From: Escherichia phage PNJ-9
Direction: 5' to 3' (one strand)
Length of the DNA stretch: 64,000 bases
Sequence record: PQ100635.1
Below are positions 1,298 to 51,497 of the stretch, in pieces. The position numbers and the translations under genes are program-made. A model generated the notes under the pieces. It did no database searches. It was given only the letters and a program-made list of their open reading frames with translations, and was not told where the DNA came from. Position 1 is the first letter of the stretch. Each line of letters opens with the position of its first letter.

Positions 1298-1840
1298 ATG
1301 AGAAAAGCACTACTCGCTGGTCTATTTGCTCTTTCATTATCAGCACATAGCTCCGAGCATACTTTTAGTAATGTCCAACTCGATAACTTGAATTATGCTT
1401 ATCAGTTTGGGGAACAGTTTTCTAAGGATGGAAAATTTAAAACGCATGAAAATATGCATAAGAAAGGACTTGGATACATAATGGCCGCAATACTATGGCA
1501 GGAATCATCTGCCGGTATTAATCTTAAAGATAAGAAAGGTCACCATGCGTATGGAATGTTCCAAAACTATCTACCAACAATGAGGGCAAGAATTAACCAG
1601 CTTGGTTATAATATGACTGATGCCCAAATTAAGAAAATGCTATCTAAGCGGTCTAATTCAACCAGATGGGCTTATATCGAATTTTCTTATTGGTTAAATA
1701 TACATAACGGGGATATAAGAAAAGCTATATCCTCATATAATGCGGGATGGAAGACAAGTGCTGGAAGTAAATATGCTTCTGAAGTCCTAGAAAAGGCTAA
1801 TTACCTTAAATCAAATAAACTACTGGAAATAAAAGAATGA
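1298..1840 (+). CDS. secreted lytic transglycosylase-like protein (SLT domain)
   Basis: N-terminal signal peptide; ES...GMFQ...SYNAG motifs typical of SLT domain; GAGGT RBS. Confidence 0.65.
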   Translation: MRKALLAGLFALSLSAHSSEHTFSNVQLDNLNYAYQFGEQFSKDGKFKTHENMHKKGLGYIMAAILWQESSAGINLKDKKGHHAYGMFQNYLPTMRARINQLGYNMTDAQIKKMLSKRSNSTRWAYIEFSYWLNIHNGDIRKAISSYNAGWKTSAGSKYASEVLEKANYLKSNKLLEIKE

Positions 1841-2184
1841 CCAAAGTGTTGGCTTTAATAGTTGGCTTGGTTTCATTTAACGCTCTTGCTAATACTACAT
1901 ATACTGATGTAACGGAGTATACAAATAGAACGGCGTCTGATTATTGTGGTAAAAGTCAAGAGTGTAAAGTAGATTTTTCACAAAAATTGTTATATGCGTA
2001 TAAAGACGGAGAAAAAGATGGGGCGTCTAGTAGGTTCAAGGCGTCTACCTTAATTAAAAGATACTATAAAAAATGGCAAATATTAGAATGCTCGGTGGCG
2101 GAACCTAAAGATAAGGCAGCATGCAATTCTATGGTGGACCGTCTAGTTGACTCTTATAATAGAGGACTTGCAGCAAGTGATTAA
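1837..2184 (+). CDS. secreted hypothetical protein (115 aa; possible Vs homolog by position and size)
   Basis: Signal peptide MTKVLALIVGLVSFNALA; ATGA overlap with upstream gene. Confidence 0.5.
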   Translation: MTKVLALIVGLVSFNALANTTYTDVTEYTNRTASDYCGKSQECKVDFSQKLLYAYKDGEKDGASSRFKASTLIKRYYKKWQILECSVAEPKDKAACNSMVDRLVDSYNRGLAASD

Positions 2185-2644
2185 AAACTATATCAAGGGC
2201 GATATTGTCGCCCTGTTTTCTAAAGGTAATAATATTGCTCATGGGTGTAATTGTTTTCATACAATGGGCGCTGGTGTGGCAGGACAATTAGCAAAGGCTT
2301 ATCCAAAAATTTTAGAAGCCGATAAACTTCAAACCGAATTCGGTGATGAGACTAAACTCGGGACTTATTCGGTTTATGAAAAATATTTTAAGACCCATAA
2401 AGCTTATTGCTTTAATCTTTATACACAGTTTGAGCCGGGACCTAATTTTGAGTACTCTGCTTTAATGAATTGTATAATAGAATTAAATGAATTCGGAAAG
2501 AATAAGATAACAAAGCCTGTAATTTATATGCCAAGAATTGGTGCAGGTATCGGTGGTGGAAACTGGGATGTCATCGAAGAGATTTTAGATACGTATTCCA
2601 CTAAACTAGAAATTGTGATTGTTGATTGGGAACCGTTATTATGA
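2147..2644 (+). CDS. macro-domain (ADP-ribose binding/processing) protein
   Basis: GDIV...HGCNCFHTMGAGVAGQL and PRIGAGIGGG resemble macro-domain motifs; start uncertain (TTG 2147 or GTG 2177 with GAGGA RBS). Confidence 0.55.
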   Translation: MTLIIEDLQQVIKNYIKGDIVALFSKGNNIAHGCNCFHTMGAGVAGQLAKAYPKILEADKLQTEFGDETKLGTYSVYEKYFKTHKAYCFNLYTQFEPGPNFEYSALMNCIIELNEFGKNKITKPVIYMPRIGAGIGGGNWDVIEEILDTYSTKLEIVIVDWEPLL

Positions 2645-2853
2645 ATATACATTATCCACATCCATATGACCCAAAGAATAAGGTAGTAATTATTCGTCAA
2701 TGGGAACGCATTTGTCGTACCAAATGTCCAATTAATAGTCCACATGATGTAGATAAAGACTACATCGGAACATTCGTTGAATATACCTTTATTGATAAGA
2801 AAGGTCGTAAACAGCATGTAGAAGAATACTGCTTAAAGGTGACATGGTTATGA
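2641..2853 (+). CDS. hypothetical protein (70 aa)
   Basis: ATG in ATGA overlap with upstream stop; in frame with track ORF 2626..2853. Confidence 0.45.
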   Translation: MNIHYPHPYDPKNKVVIIRQWERICRTKCPINSPHDVDKDYIGTFVEYTFIDKKGRKQHVEEYCLKVTWL

Positions 2854-3035
2854 GTTTAAGTAAAGAACAAAAAGACAAACTCTTTTCTCTTATCCACGAA
2901 GTTATGGATAAAAATAGTGAATTGGAAAAAGTTTGTAATGAATGCGGTCCTTTTAGTGCAAACGAGTACGAAGAACTTTCTAAAGAATTCGATAATAAAG
3001 AACAAGAACTTATTAATTATATAAATTCCTTATGA
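2850..3035 (+). CDS. small acidic protein, REQ-family paralog (61 aa)
   Basis: ATG after AAAGGTGA RBS; SKEQKDKLFSLIHEV N-terminus shared with 3032, 4460 and 5021 ORFs. Confidence 0.45.
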   Translation: MSLSKEQKDKLFSLIHEVMDKNSELEKVCNECGPFSANEYEELSKEFDNKEQELINYINSL

Positions 3036-3220
3036 TTACTCGCGAACAAAAGAACGAAATATTATTTTTAGTTGGTGAAATTATTAGTTTAGAAAAGGAT
3101 TTGTCTTTTGAAATATCTTCTGAATATGGAGATGCCGAAACATATTACGAATTAGTAAAATCTATCGATAAAGCTGAAAATGATTTAAAAACATATTTAG
3201 AAAATTTAACTAAGGATTAA
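3032..3220 (+). CDS. small acidic protein, REQ-family paralog (62 aa)
   Basis: ATGA overlap start; TREQKNEILFLVGEI N-terminus. Confidence 0.45.
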   Translation: MITREQKNEILFLVGEIISLEKDLSFEISSEYGDAETYYELVKSIDKAENDLKTYLENLTKD

Positions 3221-3221
3221 A

Positions 3222-3803
3222 ATGGCTAGTTTAATTTTTACATATGCCGCTATGAACGCTGGTAAGTCTGCTTCATTACTTACAGCCGCACATAACTATA
3301 AAGAACGTGGCATGGGTGTATTAGTTCTTAAACCGGCTATTGATACTCGCGATTCAAAAGGTGAAATAGTCTCTCGTATTGGTATTCGTCAGGACGCCAA
3401 TATAATTACAAAAGACATGGATATCTTTGAATTCTATAAATGGGCTGCAGCACAAAAGGATATTCATTGTGTATTTGTTGACGAAGCTCAATTCTTAACT
3501 ACTGAAAAGGTGTATCAACTTAGTCGTATTGTTGACGTATACAATGTGCCGGTAATGGCATATGGACTACGAACAGATTTTAAAGGTAATCTATTTGAAG
3601 GTTCTCAAGCATTAATGGCTATTGCCGATAAGCTTGTTGAACTTAAAGGTGTCTGTCATTGCGGTAAAAAGGCCACAATGGTAGCTAGAGTCACGGAAGA
3701 CGGACTTCCAATTACAGATGGCAGTCAAATTGAAATTGGTGATACTGATAGATATGTGTCATTATGCCGGAAGCATTGGAATGATTTGACAGGGTTGTTA
3801 TAA
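3222..3803 (+). CDS. tk: thymidine kinase
   Basis: 193 aa; P-loop AAMNAGKS, VDEAQF, zinc-ribbon CHCGKKA...C typical of TK; T4 tk is the same length. Confidence 0.9.
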   Translation: MASLIFTYAAMNAGKSASLLTAAHNYKERGMGVLVLKPAIDTRDSKGEIVSRIGIRQDANIITKDMDIFEFYKWAAAQKDIHCVFVDEAQFLTTEKVYQLSRIVDVYNVPVMAYGLRTDFKGNLFEGSQALMAIADKLVELKGVCHCGKKATMVARVTEDGLPITDGSQIEIGDTDRYVSLCRKHWNDLTGLL

Positions 3804-45691: not shown

Positions 45692-46342
45692 ATGATTTAT
45701 TACATGCACAAAAACGCACCATTTAAATATGGTAAATTTCCTAATGCACAATGTTATAATATAACGCCGAATGAAAATAATAACGGATACCATATTGGTG
45801 TAATTTTTGTAATTGTTAAAGATAACGAAATCGTTGCCTGGGCAGATTTTAAAGGTACAACATATGATGTTAATCCTGTGCCTTTCACATATTACAATAT
45901 AATGGATTTGGCATATGATTATAATTGGTTTACTCATGACACGTTGGCTCATATTGAAGGTGTAGGATTTGACATCTCTTATTCTAGCTATTCATTATGT
46001 CCTATGAGCCGAGCTCACGGTAAAGATGTATCATATCTTTCAATTCGGAAACGTGTAAACTTCAAACGTAGTACAGAGTATGTTGGTGGACTCTTTGTTA
46101 AAGATAATAAAATAACCCGTATTAGTTATCCTTTAAGTGTAGGTCAAAAAGATGTTGATGTTGATTTAGACTTAACTGAAAGTAACATTAATCGTATTGC
46201 TTCTGTATATTTTGATATCGATGAAAAAATTGTAGTGTGTGGATACGAATTACCACCTGAAGAAAAGGCTGAAACAATTGAAGTCGAATTAGAAATTTCT
46301 GTTGATGACCAAATATTTAATGCATTTATGAATCGAGGTTAA
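45692..46342 (+). CDS. hypothetical protein (216 aa)
   Basis: ATG after AGGTGAATAAT leader. Confidence 0.5.
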   Translation: MIYYMHKNAPFKYGKFPNAQCYNITPNENNNGYHIGVIFVIVKDNEIVAWADFKGTTYDVNPVPFTYYNIMDLAYDYNWFTHDTLAHIEGVGFDISYSSYSLCPMSRAHGKDVSYLSIRKRVNFKRSTEYVGGLFVKDNKITRISYPLSVGQKDVDVDLDLTESNINRIASVYFDIDEKIVVCGYELPPEEKAETIEVELEISVDDQIFNAFMNRG

Positions 46343-50888: not shown

Positions 50889-51497
50889 ATGTTTATGCCG
50901 TATAACGAGTGTGAAATTGAAGAAATGGTTCGTCGTGCTCAATGCCCAGACTATCAGGATGAACTTCAGTACAAAATCGATGAGCAATTCAGCGACATTG
51001 AACAAAGTGTACTATGGCAATGTATGGAAAACAAGCCAGACAGCATCCAACAAGATTTAAGTGCAATTGTTCGTAGAAATTGGACGTCTTCTGTTCCTGA
51101 GACAATGTATCGTGGAATCTCTAAGAAAACTATGGCCACACTCGATGATAAAGGCGTTGGTAGTATTATTAAATTTGATAGAGTAATGAGCTTTAGTCCG
51201 GTGTTTGGTGTAGCACGTAACTTCGCTTCGTATAATTTTTACGGAACATTTAATATGTTCTGCATCAAAGATGCACCATTTGCTTTCAACTTCCGTGAAC
51301 ATATGCTTAACATGATTCTGGCTGCGCCATCTTGTGAGTTCAATGGAGCTTTCCCTGAAGCGACAAGACGGTCTAATGCTAGACTTATATCTGACGAATG
51401 TGAATTTATGCTCCCTATAGGGACTACACTGCGTGTAGATTCTATTATTCAAGATGGACGTTATACAATCTGGAATCTGACTATTGTCAGTTACTGA
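50889..51497 (+). CDS. ModA/ModB-like ADP-ribosyltransferase (R-S-E type)
   Basis: 202 aa; YRG, SFS and DECEF motifs in R-S-E order; position between soc and srd/dda as T4 modA/modB. Confidence 0.55.
   Translation: MFMPYNECEIEEMVRRAQCPDYQDELQYKIDEQFSDIEQSVLWQCMENKPDSIQQDLSAIVRRNWTSSVPETMYRGISKKTMATLDDKGVGSIIKFDRVMSFSPVFGVARNFASYNFYGTFNMFCIKDAPFAFNFREHMLNMILAAPSCEFNGAFPEATRRSNARLISDECEFMLPIGTTLRVDSIIQDGRYTIWNLTIVSY

What the first reader, a model, noticed from the sequence alone, without database searches (positions are those of the whole stretch)
2147..2644. Macro-domain protein upstream of tk
Macro-domain-like motifs suggest ADP-ribose binding or removal. Together with two ADP-ribosyltransferase candidates in the window this hints at a phage ADP-ribosylation writer/eraser set, possibly aimed at host ADP-ribosylating defences.
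Basis: inference. Interest (0 to 1): 0.5.

Follow-up and report, generated by a model that had tools for sequence, protein, structure and literature searches.

The report
Phage macrodomain AdfM (T4 Tk.4 ortholog)
This gene is the RB69-like phage's copy of T4 tk.4/adfM, a small ADP-ribose-removing (macrodomain) protein recently shown in T4 to protect the phage from the bacterial DarTG2 DNA-ADP-ribosylating defence, so the finding is real but already known.

Summary

The real gene is 2177-2644 (GTG start, 155 aa), not 2147-2644. The window is a Mosigvirus (RB69-like T-even phage, 99.6% identical to phage PNJ-6), where GenBank already calls this gene "macro domain protein". It is the syntenic ortholog of T4 Tk.4 (about 85% aa identity, dN/dS 0.075).

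A 2025 preprint named T4 tk.4 adfM. It was the only transposon hit on a DarTG2 host, and a clean knockout sensitises T4 to DarTG2. So "aimed at host ADP-ribosylating defences" is supported through the ortholog. The [quoted passage not shown] is not: I found only one ModA-like gene, 48 kb away.

One point the preprint does not mention: the family has an invariant Gln where DarG and TARG1 have their catalytic Lys. That is the state in Streptomyces SCO6735, which cleaves thymidine-linked ADP-ribose from DNA without a Lys. It differs from PhiKZ "AdfM", which keeps the Lys. No biochemistry exists for the T-even protein. Interest is low.

The parts
2177..2644 (+). adfM / tk.4 ortholog coding sequence. 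GTG start, 155 codons plus TGA. Single macrodomain.
   Evidence: Pfam Macro at 28.5 bits against a cut-off of 22. About 85% aa identity to T4 Tk.4 and the same gene order vs-tk.4-tk.3-tk.2-tk.1-tk. PNJ-6 annotates a 468-nt 'macro domain protein' CDS here. dN/dS 0.075. AF2 pLDDT 95.8.
2147..2176 (+). In-frame TTG-started extension included in the finding. Not part of the gene; it is the 3' end of vs (1837-2184).
   Evidence: T4 has an in-frame TAG directly before its ATG at the position homologous to 2177. tblastn matches to orthologs begin at residue 11 of the 165-aa ORF.
2162..2166 (+). Shine-Dalgarno-like GAGGA, 10 nt before GTG 2177. The start codon overlaps the vs stop (GTGATTAA), which suggests translational coupling.
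   Evidence: Read from the sequence. T4 has CGAGGA at the same position.
2196..2214 (+). Conserved 8-bp G+C-rich hairpin (AGGGCGAT-ATT-GTCGCCCT) followed by a T-rich run, inside codons 7-13 of the gene. Terminator- or attenuator-like, or an RNA-stability element.
   Evidence: Terminator-like scan hit. Predicted dG about -13 kcal/mol. A 26-nt block is identical in the window, T4 and fPS-2 (58% aa ortholog) despite dS=1.18. The fPS-2 record annotates a terminator at this spot. No Rfam match.
2240..2254 (+). H22-G-C-N25-C motif. N25 corresponds to DarG N22, SCO6735 N27 and PhiKZ AdfM N23. H22 corresponds to SCO6735 H24 and Poa1p H23.
   Evidence: Invariant in 58 phage/metagenome homologs and in 80 bacterial relatives. 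Aligned by hhalign to SCO6735 and DarG. Roles of these residues are taken from PMC9411070, PMC13309987 and PMC12846349.
2264..2275 (+). M30-G-A-G33 glycine loop (first loop of the ADP-ribose pocket). Ala32 sits where SCO6735 has Lys34 and DarG has Lys29.
   Evidence: Alignments A2 and A3 and hhalign. G33 is invariant.
2414..2428 (+). N80-L-Y-T-Q84 strand end. Q84 occupies the position of the catalytic Lys80 of DarG and Lys84 of TARG1, and of Gln85 of SCO6735.
   Evidence: hhalign pairs NlYTQ with NFPTK of Mtb DarG (98.0%, E=3e-13) and with NMIGQ of SCO6735 (98.2%, E=4.9e-14). Gln is invariant in 58+81 sequences. SCO6735 Q85A is inactive.
2531..2566 (+). P119-R-I-G-A-G-I-G-G-G-N-W130 phosphate-binding loop. 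No Asp equivalent to TARG1 D125.
   Evidence: P119, I121, G122, G124 and W130 are invariant. Aligned with PRIGCGLAGGTW of SCO6735 and PPLGVGNGGLDW of DarG.

Best explanation
The gene at 2177-2644 is the Mosigvirus ortholog of T4 tk.4, recently named adfM (anti-DarT factor, macrodomain). It encodes a 155-aa stand-alone macrodomain of the TARG1/DarG/SCO6735 (ALC1-like) class.

Proposed mechanism. When the host DarT2 toxin attaches ADP-ribose to N3 of thymidine in single-stranded phage DNA (TNTC motifs) and so blocks replication, this enzyme binds the ADP-ribose and hydrolyses the thymine-ribose bond, restoring normal DNA.

Proposed chemistry. It is probably the lysine-independent type described for SCO6735. 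An invariant Gln (Q84), held in place by the invariant Asn (N25), positions the distal ribose, and a water molecule does the chemistry. DarG and TARG1 use a catalytic Lys instead.

Shown here: macrodomain identity, fold class, orthology and synteny with T4 tk.4, purifying selection, and the Gln-for-Lys active-site state.

Shown by others, for T4 only: tk.4 is needed for resistance to DarTG2.

Inferred: that this ortholog does the same, that it acts enzymatically on thymine-linked ADP-ribose, and the catalytic details.

For: Orthology: about 85% aa identity to T4 Tk.4 over the full length, and identical gene order regB-vs.1-vs-tk.4-tk.3-tk.2-tk.1-tk. dN/dS 0.075.

Function of the ortholog: T4 tk.4 was the only significant HIDEN-SEQ hit on a DarTG2 host, and a clean knockout sensitises T4 to DarTG2 (10.1101/2025.11.20.689424). 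Independently, T4 lacking adfA and adfN stays DarTG2-resistant, which had predicted a further factor (PMC11825919).

Chemistry:
- Q84 aligns with DarG K80 and with SCO6735 Q85, and N25 with DarG N22 and SCO6735 N27, in profile-profile alignments.
- H22, N25 and Q84 are invariant in 58 phage/metagenome homologs and 80 bacterial relatives.
- SCO6735 cleaves thymidine-linked ADP-ribose from DNA and protects against DarT. Its Q85A mutant is dead and N27S nearly so (PMC9411070).
- Every enzyme found robustly active on T-ADPr in the panels read here belongs to this TARG1-like group; human MACROD2 and ARH3 showed only low activity (PMC12879935, PMC13036486).
Against: - No biochemical assay exists for any T-even Tk.4/AdfM protein. 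The preprint itself says enzymatic removal 'seems likely'.
- The genetic result is for T4, not for this phage, and comes from a preprint.
- The DarG catalytic Lys is absent.
- The two Lys residues that position DNA in SCO6735 (K34, K89) and its extended mobile loop are also absent. DNA binding would have to be achieved differently.
- The HxCNC motif and a Thr at the Ser30 position resemble yeast Poa1p, which acts on small molecules.
- The NCBIfam DarG equivalog score is 32.7 against a cut-off of 250.
Confidence: 0.72

Rival explanations
1. The protein protects against DarT2 mainly without catalysis. It would bind and inhibit the DarT2 toxin, or shield ADP-ribosylated DNA, rather than hydrolyse the modification.
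For: Catalytically dead SCO6735 (Q85A), DarG (K80A) and TARG1 (K84A) all inhibit DarT in vitro by interaction, SCO6735 most strongly (PMC9411070). Other phage anti-DarT factors (AdfA, AdfB) act by binding the toxin. The window protein lacks the DarG catalytic Lys.
Against: The residues that matter for catalysis in SCO6735 (Asn, Gln, and the glycine loops) are invariant across about 140 phage and bacterial homologs, including bacteria with no DarT nearby. That pattern fits an enzyme, not a toxin-specific binder. The protein also lacks the C-terminal DarT-binding domain of DarG: it is 155 aa against a 338-position NCBIfam model.
Confidence: 0.1
2. The protein is a Poa1p-like small-molecule or RNA-end ADP-ribose hydrolase (ADP-ribose-1''-phosphate phosphatase, O-acetyl-ADP-ribose deacetylase, or remover of ADP-ribose from RNA). 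It would serve nucleotide or NAD salvage, or destroy ADP-ribose-derived signals. The DarTG2 phenotype would then be a side activity.
For: - The family is widely annotated 'phosphatase' or 'O-acetyl-ADP-ribose deacetylase'.
- It shares Poa1p His23 and Asn26, with Thr at the Ser30 position, as noted for a Pakpunavirus homolog (PMC12846349).
- SCO6735, TARG1 and DarG also remove uracil-linked ADP-ribose from RNA.
Against: The only phenotype on record for an ortholog is loss of DarTG2 resistance, and tk.4 was the single hit in that screen. The natural Poa1p substrates have not been found in bacteria. Poa1p has neither Gln nor Lys at the Q84 position (alignment).
Confidence: 0.12
3. The macrodomain is the eraser for the phage's own ADP-ribosyltransferases (ModA here, Alt elsewhere in the genome), tuning or reversing ADP-ribosylation or RNAylation of host proteins.
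For: A ModA-like ART is present in the window at 50889-51497 (PHROG 832, E=7e-39). Arginine-specific macrodomains do exist (MavL, cited in the reference list seen).
Against: - Only one ART is detectable.
- It is 48 kb away and not co-localised.
- The family's nearest characterised enzymes act on thymine/uracil-linked or Glu/Asp-linked ADP-ribose.
- About 250 bacterial species carry close relatives of this protein, mostly marine and environmental taxa rather than T-even phage hosts.
- 2,799 phage records from many genera (Klebsiella, Pseudomonas, Vibrio, Acinetobacter and others) carry a homolog. I did not check these for Mod/Alt genes.
Confidence: 0.04

Closest known systems
T4 Tk.4 = AdfM (anti-DarT factor Macrodomain), bioRxiv 10.1101/2025.11.20.689424
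   Same: Ortholog: about 85% aa identity over all 155 residues, the same start context overlapping vs, the same gene order, the same invariant H/N/Q and glycine loops, and the same embedded hairpin.
   Different: A different genus (Mosigvirus against Tequatrovirus), with 23 of 155 residues differing. These include G126 (T4 has K) in the phosphate loop. The anti-DarTG2 phenotype has not been tested for this allele.
Streptomyces coelicolor SCO6735 (PDB 5E3B) and Bacteroides BT1257 (2AFC/2FG1): stand-alone Gln-type ALC1-like macrodomains
   Same: - Stand-alone, single-domain proteins of about 150-180 aa.
- Gln at the DarG-K80 position, and conserved His and Asn in the first strand-loop.
- PRIGxGxxGGxW loop.
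- SCO6735 removes T-ADPr from DNA and protects from DarT.
   Different: Only 23-30% identity. The phage family lacks the loop after the Gln that is about 5-6 residues longer in these proteins and carries K89. It has Ala where SCO6735 has K34. It has its own signature, HGCNC...NxYTQ.
DarG (DarG2) antitoxin macrodomain (PDB 5M31/5M3E/5M3I/7OMU)
   Different: - Catalytic Lys80 is replaced by Gln.
- No C-terminal DarT-binding domain.
- No adjacent darT.
- The NCBIfam equivalog score is 32.7 against a cut-off of 250.
PhiKZ gp104 'AdfM' (Cell Rep 2026, PMC13309987)
   Same: A phage-encoded stand-alone macrodomain that counters DarTG2. Activity on TNTC T-ADPr ssDNA has been shown in vitro for the PhiKZ protein.
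   Different: PhiKZ AdfM is DarG-like, with N23 and K78 matching DarG N22 and K80. It shares only a 23-residue BLAST match with the window protein (E=6e-4 for the single comparison). The two 'AdfM' proteins belong to different macrodomain lineages.
Yeast Poa1p (PDB 6LFQ-6LFU) and human TARG1/OARD1 (4J5Q-S)
   Different: Poa1p acts on ADP-ribose-1''-phosphate and O-acetyl-ADP-ribose, and has no Gln or Lys at the Q84 position. TARG1 uses a Lys84/Asp125 dyad, and neither residue is present here.

Membership tests
Macro domain (Pfam PF01661) | Profile score above Pfam's gathering threshold | tested here: met
   28.5 bits against 22, E=1.6e-6, profile positions 2-117 of 118.
Macro domain (Pfam PF01661) | Three-layer alpha/beta/alpha macro fold | tested here: met
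T4 Tk.4 / AdfM orthologous group | Full-length high identity to T4 Tk.4 | tested here: met
   83.9% by tblastn and 85% in alignment over 155 aa with no gaps.
T4 Tk.4 / AdfM orthologous group | Conserved position between vs and tk.3-tk.2-tk.1-tk | tested here: met
   T4 annotation compared with window ORFs and their Pfam families RegB, DUF7202 and DUF7438 x2. PNJ-6 annotation agrees.
T4 Tk.4 / AdfM orthologous group | Required for phage growth on DarTG2-expressing hosts | not testable with these tools
   Shown only for T4. It needs a deletion mutant of this phage.
DarG (DarG2) antitoxin | NCBIfam equivalog NF048014 score above cut-off | tested here: not met
   32.7 bits against a cut-off of 250. 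PADLOC DarG scores 34.1 bits over the macro part only.
DarG (DarG2) antitoxin | Catalytic lysine (K80 in Taq/Mtb DarG) | tested here: not met
   Gln84 occupies this column in MAFFT and hhalign alignments, and is invariant in the family.
DarG (DarG2) antitoxin | C-terminal DarT-binding domain and an adjacent darT gene | tested here: not met
   The protein is 155 aa and a macrodomain only. Its neighbours are vs and tk.3. No DarT2-like ORF lies within 5 kb of 80 bacterial relatives, though this was tblastn with a single DarT2 query.
SCO6735-like Gln-type ALC1-class macrodomain | Gln at the K80/K84-equivalent position, held by a conserved Asn (N27), with His24 nearby | tested here: met
   hhalign pairs NlYTQ with NMIGQ and HGCN with HVCN (98.2%, E=4.9e-14). 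The residue numbering was checked against the 5E3B sequence and the paper.
SCO6735-like Gln-type ALC1-class macrodomain | Extended mobile loop with Lys89, and Lys34 for DNA positioning | tested here: not met
   The loop after the Gln is about 5-6 residues shorter and has no Lys. Ala32 aligns with K34.
SCO6735-like Gln-type ALC1-class macrodomain | Hydrolysis of thymidine-linked ADP-ribose on ssDNA | not testable with these tools
   Needs an in vitro assay with DarT2-modified oligonucleotide.
Poa1p-like ADP-ribose-1''-phosphate phosphatase | Key residues His23, Asn26, Ser30 and Gly33 of Poa1p (as listed in PMC12846349) | tested here: inconclusive
   H22 and N25 are present. Thr29 aligns with Ser30. 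Ala32 or Gly33 aligns with Gly33, depending on register. Activity on the small-molecule substrates cannot be tested here.

The most novel reading that the evidence does not exclude
The T-even AdfM/Tk.4 family is not a captured DarG antitoxin. It is a third, phage-adapted branch of the lysine-less (Gln-type) ALC1-like macrodomains: HGCNC...NxYTQ signature, short loop, and no DNA-positioning lysines.

Phages would then have recruited macrodomains against DarT2 at least twice independently: the Lys-type PhiKZ AdfM and the Gln-type T-even AdfM. The T-even enzyme would use water-mediated, lysine-independent chemistry and might have a wider substrate range, for example uracil-ADP-ribose on RNA. Its expression would be gated by the conserved hairpin in its first codons.
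Probability: 0.5. Interest if true: 0.35.

Novelty: already known. Interest (0 to 1): 0.18.

Why it matters
On its own the finding adds little. The gene is already annotated as a macrodomain in near-identical GenBank records, and its T4 ortholog has been assigned an anti-DarTG2 role.

What it does show is that RB69-like phages carry an intact, strongly constrained adfM alongside adfA. This fits the picture of layered anti-DarT counter-defences in T-even phages.

The Gln-for-Lys active site could guide the missing biochemistry. It predicts that Q84 and N25, not a lysine, are the residues to mutate. It also implies that the two proteins now both called AdfM (T4 and PhiKZ) are mechanistically and evolutionarily distinct.

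Tried and rejected
1. Looked for a DarG-like relative on plasmids by tblastn. I found only stand-alone 'macro domain-containing' or hypothetical proteins, no DarG.

2. Asked whether bacterial relatives sit next to a DarT toxin, which would support an 'orphan antitoxin' origin. No DarT2-like sequence lies within 5 kb of any of 80 genomic loci. This used a single P. aeruginosa DarT2 query and so has limited sensitivity.

3. Tested whether the window protein is the same kind of protein as PhiKZ AdfM. It is not: only a 23-residue match.

4. A small MAFFT alignment (A3) shifted the central strand by 1-3 columns for SCO6735, BT1257 and DarG. I did not rely on it for the Gln/Lys column, and used the larger alignment A2 and hhalign instead.

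5. The sigma-70 promoter scan around the gene gave no more hits than shuffled sequence (12 against 13.5 expected), so it is not informative.

6. An Rfam search of 1700-3300 found nothing.

7. Searched for a second ART or a second macrodomain in the window by tblastn and found none. I did not scan every ORF with Pfam.

8. My initial assumption that no macrodomain removes arginine-linked ADP-ribose is wrong, because MavL-type macrodomains do (reference seen). The writer/eraser model is therefore rejected on lack of evidence, not on chemistry.

Full report
**What is at the coordinates**

The + strand carries an ORF that ends at 2644. The mechanical ORF starts at TTG 2147 and gives 165 aa. The real start is GTG 2177, for four reasons:
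- It aligns with the ATG of the T4 ortholog, which is directly preceded by an in-frame TAG.
- A GAGGA lies 10 nt upstream.
- Every homolog begins MI..YIKGD.
- The 99.6%-identical phage PNJ-6 annotates a 468-nt CDS exactly here.

The start overlaps the stop of the upstream gene vs (GTGATTAA). The stop overlaps the start of the next gene (ATGA). The gene is therefore one link in a tightly packed early-gene string.

**Is it a macrodomain?**

Yes.
- Pfam Macro (PF01661) scores 28.5 bits against a gathering cut-off of 22, over nearly the whole profile.
- PHROG 335 matches at E=1.2e-66.
- The best sequence matches in PDB are BT1257 (6e-11), yeast Poa1p (1.6e-8), SCO6735 (6.7e-5), DarG (5.6e-4) and TARG1 (about 1e-3).
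- An AlphaFold2 model built on 58 homologs has mean pLDDT 95.8.
- This places the protein in the ALC1-like (TARG1/DarG/SCO6735/Poa1p) class.
- dN/dS against T4 is 0.075 with dS 1.18, so the gene is under strong purifying selection.

**What genome and what gene**

The window is a T-even phage of the genus Mosigvirus (RB69-like). It is 99.6% identical to Escherichia phage PNJ-6 over 3.2 kb.

The local gene order is:
- regB, 831-1289
- vs.1, 1298-1840
- vs, 1837-2184
- this gene, 2177-2644
- tk.3 (DUF7202), 2641-2853
- tk.2 and tk.1 (DUF7438 paralogs), to 3220
- tk, 3222-3803

This matches T4, where the corresponding gene is tk.4. Identity to T4 Tk.4 is about 85% over all 155 residues.

GenBank records name this gene 'macro domain protein', 'phosphatase' or 'hypothetical protein'. 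Homologs occur in 2,799 of 50,697 phage records from many host genera. At least 252 bacterial species genomes also carry one.

**What is known about the ortholog**

A November 2025 preprint (HIDEN-SEQ, 10.1101/2025.11.20.689424) screened a T4 transposon library on a DarTG2-expressing host. [quoted passage not shown] A clean knockout sensitised T4 to DarTG2, and the gene was named adfM, anti-DarT factor Macrodomain.

This fills a gap noted earlier. [quoted passage not shown]

The preprint infers enzymatic removal of ADP-ribose from DNA from similarity to Mtb DarG. It reports no biochemistry, and it does not mention catalytic residues, SCO6735 or TARG1.

A separate 2026 paper uses the same name, AdfM, for PhiKZ gp104. 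That protein is a DarG-like macrodomain with N23 and K78 that removes DarT2-made ADP-ribose from TNTC ssDNA in vitro (PMC13309987).

**What I can add**

I recovered the real PDB sequences of Mtb and Taq DarG and of SCO6735 from phmmer alignments. I checked the residue numbering against the papers.

In a 15-sequence MAFFT alignment and in profile-profile alignments, three things line up:
- The catalytic Lys of DarG (K80, NFPTK) and of TARG1 (K84) aligns with Gln84 of the window protein (NLYTQ).
- Gln85 of SCO6735 (NMIGQ) aligns with the same Gln84.
- Asn25 aligns with DarG N22 and SCO6735 N27, and His22 with SCO6735 H24.

H22, G23, C24, N25, C26, N80, Y82, Q84 and the PxIGxG...W loop are invariant in 58 phage or metagenome homologs, T4 Tk.4 among them, and in 80 bacterial relatives.

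SCO6735 is a stand-alone macrodomain that lacks the Lys. It still cleaves thymidine-linked ADP-ribose from DNA and protects cells from DarT. Its Q85A mutant is dead and N27S nearly dead. The proposed mechanism is water-mediated, with Gln positioning the distal ribose (PMC9411070). The Gln therefore does not argue against the anti-DarT2 role. It suggests which chemistry is used.

The phage family is nevertheless not a plain SCO6735 homolog:
- Identity is only 23%.
- The extended mobile loop with K89 is missing, and Ala replaces K34.
- It shares an HxCNC motif with Poa1p.
- It shares almost nothing beyond the first glycine loop with PhiKZ AdfM.
- It fails the defining features of DarG: equivalog score 32.7 against 250, no Lys, no C-terminal DarT-binding domain, and no darT neighbour.

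The macrodomain call is right. The guess that it is aimed at host ADP-ribosylating defences is supported through the T4 ortholog.

The 'writer/eraser set' is not supported:
- I could verify only one ART in the window, a ModA-like ORF at 50889-51497 (PHROG 832, E=7e-39; no Pfam hit).
- It has no paralog by tblastn.
- The PNJ-6 annotation lists only one ART across the span of the window.
- It lies 48 kb away, and nothing links the two genes.

Arginine-specific macrodomains exist (MavL; reference seen), so chemistry alone does not exclude this model. There is simply no evidence for it.

**Rivals that remain open**

- A non-catalytic, toxin-binding mode. Dead SCO6735, DarG and TARG1 all inhibit DarT by interaction.
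- A Poa1p-like small-molecule or RNA-directed activity.

Both are less likely than DNA de-ADP-ribosylation. The catalytic-site residues are invariant even in bacteria with no DarT nearby, and the only known phenotype is DarTG2-specific.

**Seen in passing**

- A G+C-rich hairpin (2196-2214) followed by a T-rich run sits in codons 7-13 of the gene. A 26-nt block around it is nucleotide-identical in the window, T4 and Yersinia phage fPS-2, whose protein is only 58% identical. Synonymous variation resumes at the first base after the stem. The fPS-2 record annotates a terminator there. Rfam has no match.
- The window also carries adfA (PF23813, E=3e-118) at 45692-46342. It has Arg where T4 AdfA has His. 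By position this appears to be the residue whose R164H change lets RB69 AdfA neutralise DarT1. I did not align it with RB69 AdfA itself.

**Verdict**

This is a real, correctly recognised macrodomain gene. It is already annotated in public records, and its function was already assigned in T4. Novelty is 'already known' and interest is low.

The modest new point is that T-even AdfM has a lysine-less, SCO6735-like active site. It is therefore a different lineage from PhiKZ AdfM and from DarG.

Noticed in passing
window 2196-2214 (block 2188-2214); T4 L001 3013-3038; fPS-2 L085 410-449: An 8-bp G+C-rich hairpin plus T-rich tail lies inside codons 7-13 of tk.4/adfM. A 26-nt block around it is nucleotide-identical in three T-even phages, although dS is about 1.2 and one ortholog is only 58% identical in protein. 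Synonymous variation resumes right after the stem. The fPS-2 GenBank record annotates it as a terminator. It could be an attenuator or an RNA-stability element between vs and tk.4; no Rfam family matches.
   Followed up: partly
window 45692-46342 (+): An AdfA homolog (anti-DarT factor A, Pfam PF23813, E=3e-118; 65% identical to T4 gp61.2). It has Arg in the motif INRIAS where T4 has His (INHIAS). By position this looks like the RB69 wild-type R164 allele, which was reported not to neutralise the tested DarT1. The phage may therefore be DarTG1-sensitive but DarTG2-resistant. Numbering relative to RB69 was not checked directly.
   Followed up: partly
window 50889-51497 (+): A ModA-like RNA polymerase ADP-ribosyltransferase (PHROG 832, E=7e-39) that gets no Pfam hit at E<=0.01. 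It is the only ART I could find in the window, not two.
   Followed up: partly
window 2844-3035 and 3032-3220 (+): tk.2 and tk.1 are tandem paralogs of the same family of unknown function (DUF7438; E=4e-19 and 7e-15). tk.3 (2641-2853) is DUF7202, which PNJ-6 labels 'putative ABC transporter ATP-binding protein'. That name is implausible for a 70-aa protein.
   Followed up: no
window 1298-1840 (+): The Vs.1 ortholog (180 aa, with a hydrophobic N-terminal stretch that looks like a signal peptide) has a sub-threshold match to the SLT lytic transglycosylase domain (19.4 bits against a cut-off of 21.3). One GenBank record calls it a lytic transglycosylase.
   Followed up: no
loci L003-L082 (bacterial genome contigs): Close relatives of the phage macrodomain (35-45% identity, with the same HGCNC and NxYTQ motifs) are common in Rhodobacterales (Ruegeria, Roseovarius, Shimia), Verrucomicrobiota, Hyphomicrobiaceae, Desulfobacterales and Bacteroidota. 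None has a DarT2-like gene within 5 kb by a one-query tblastn search. I did not determine whether they lie in prophages.
   Followed up: partly
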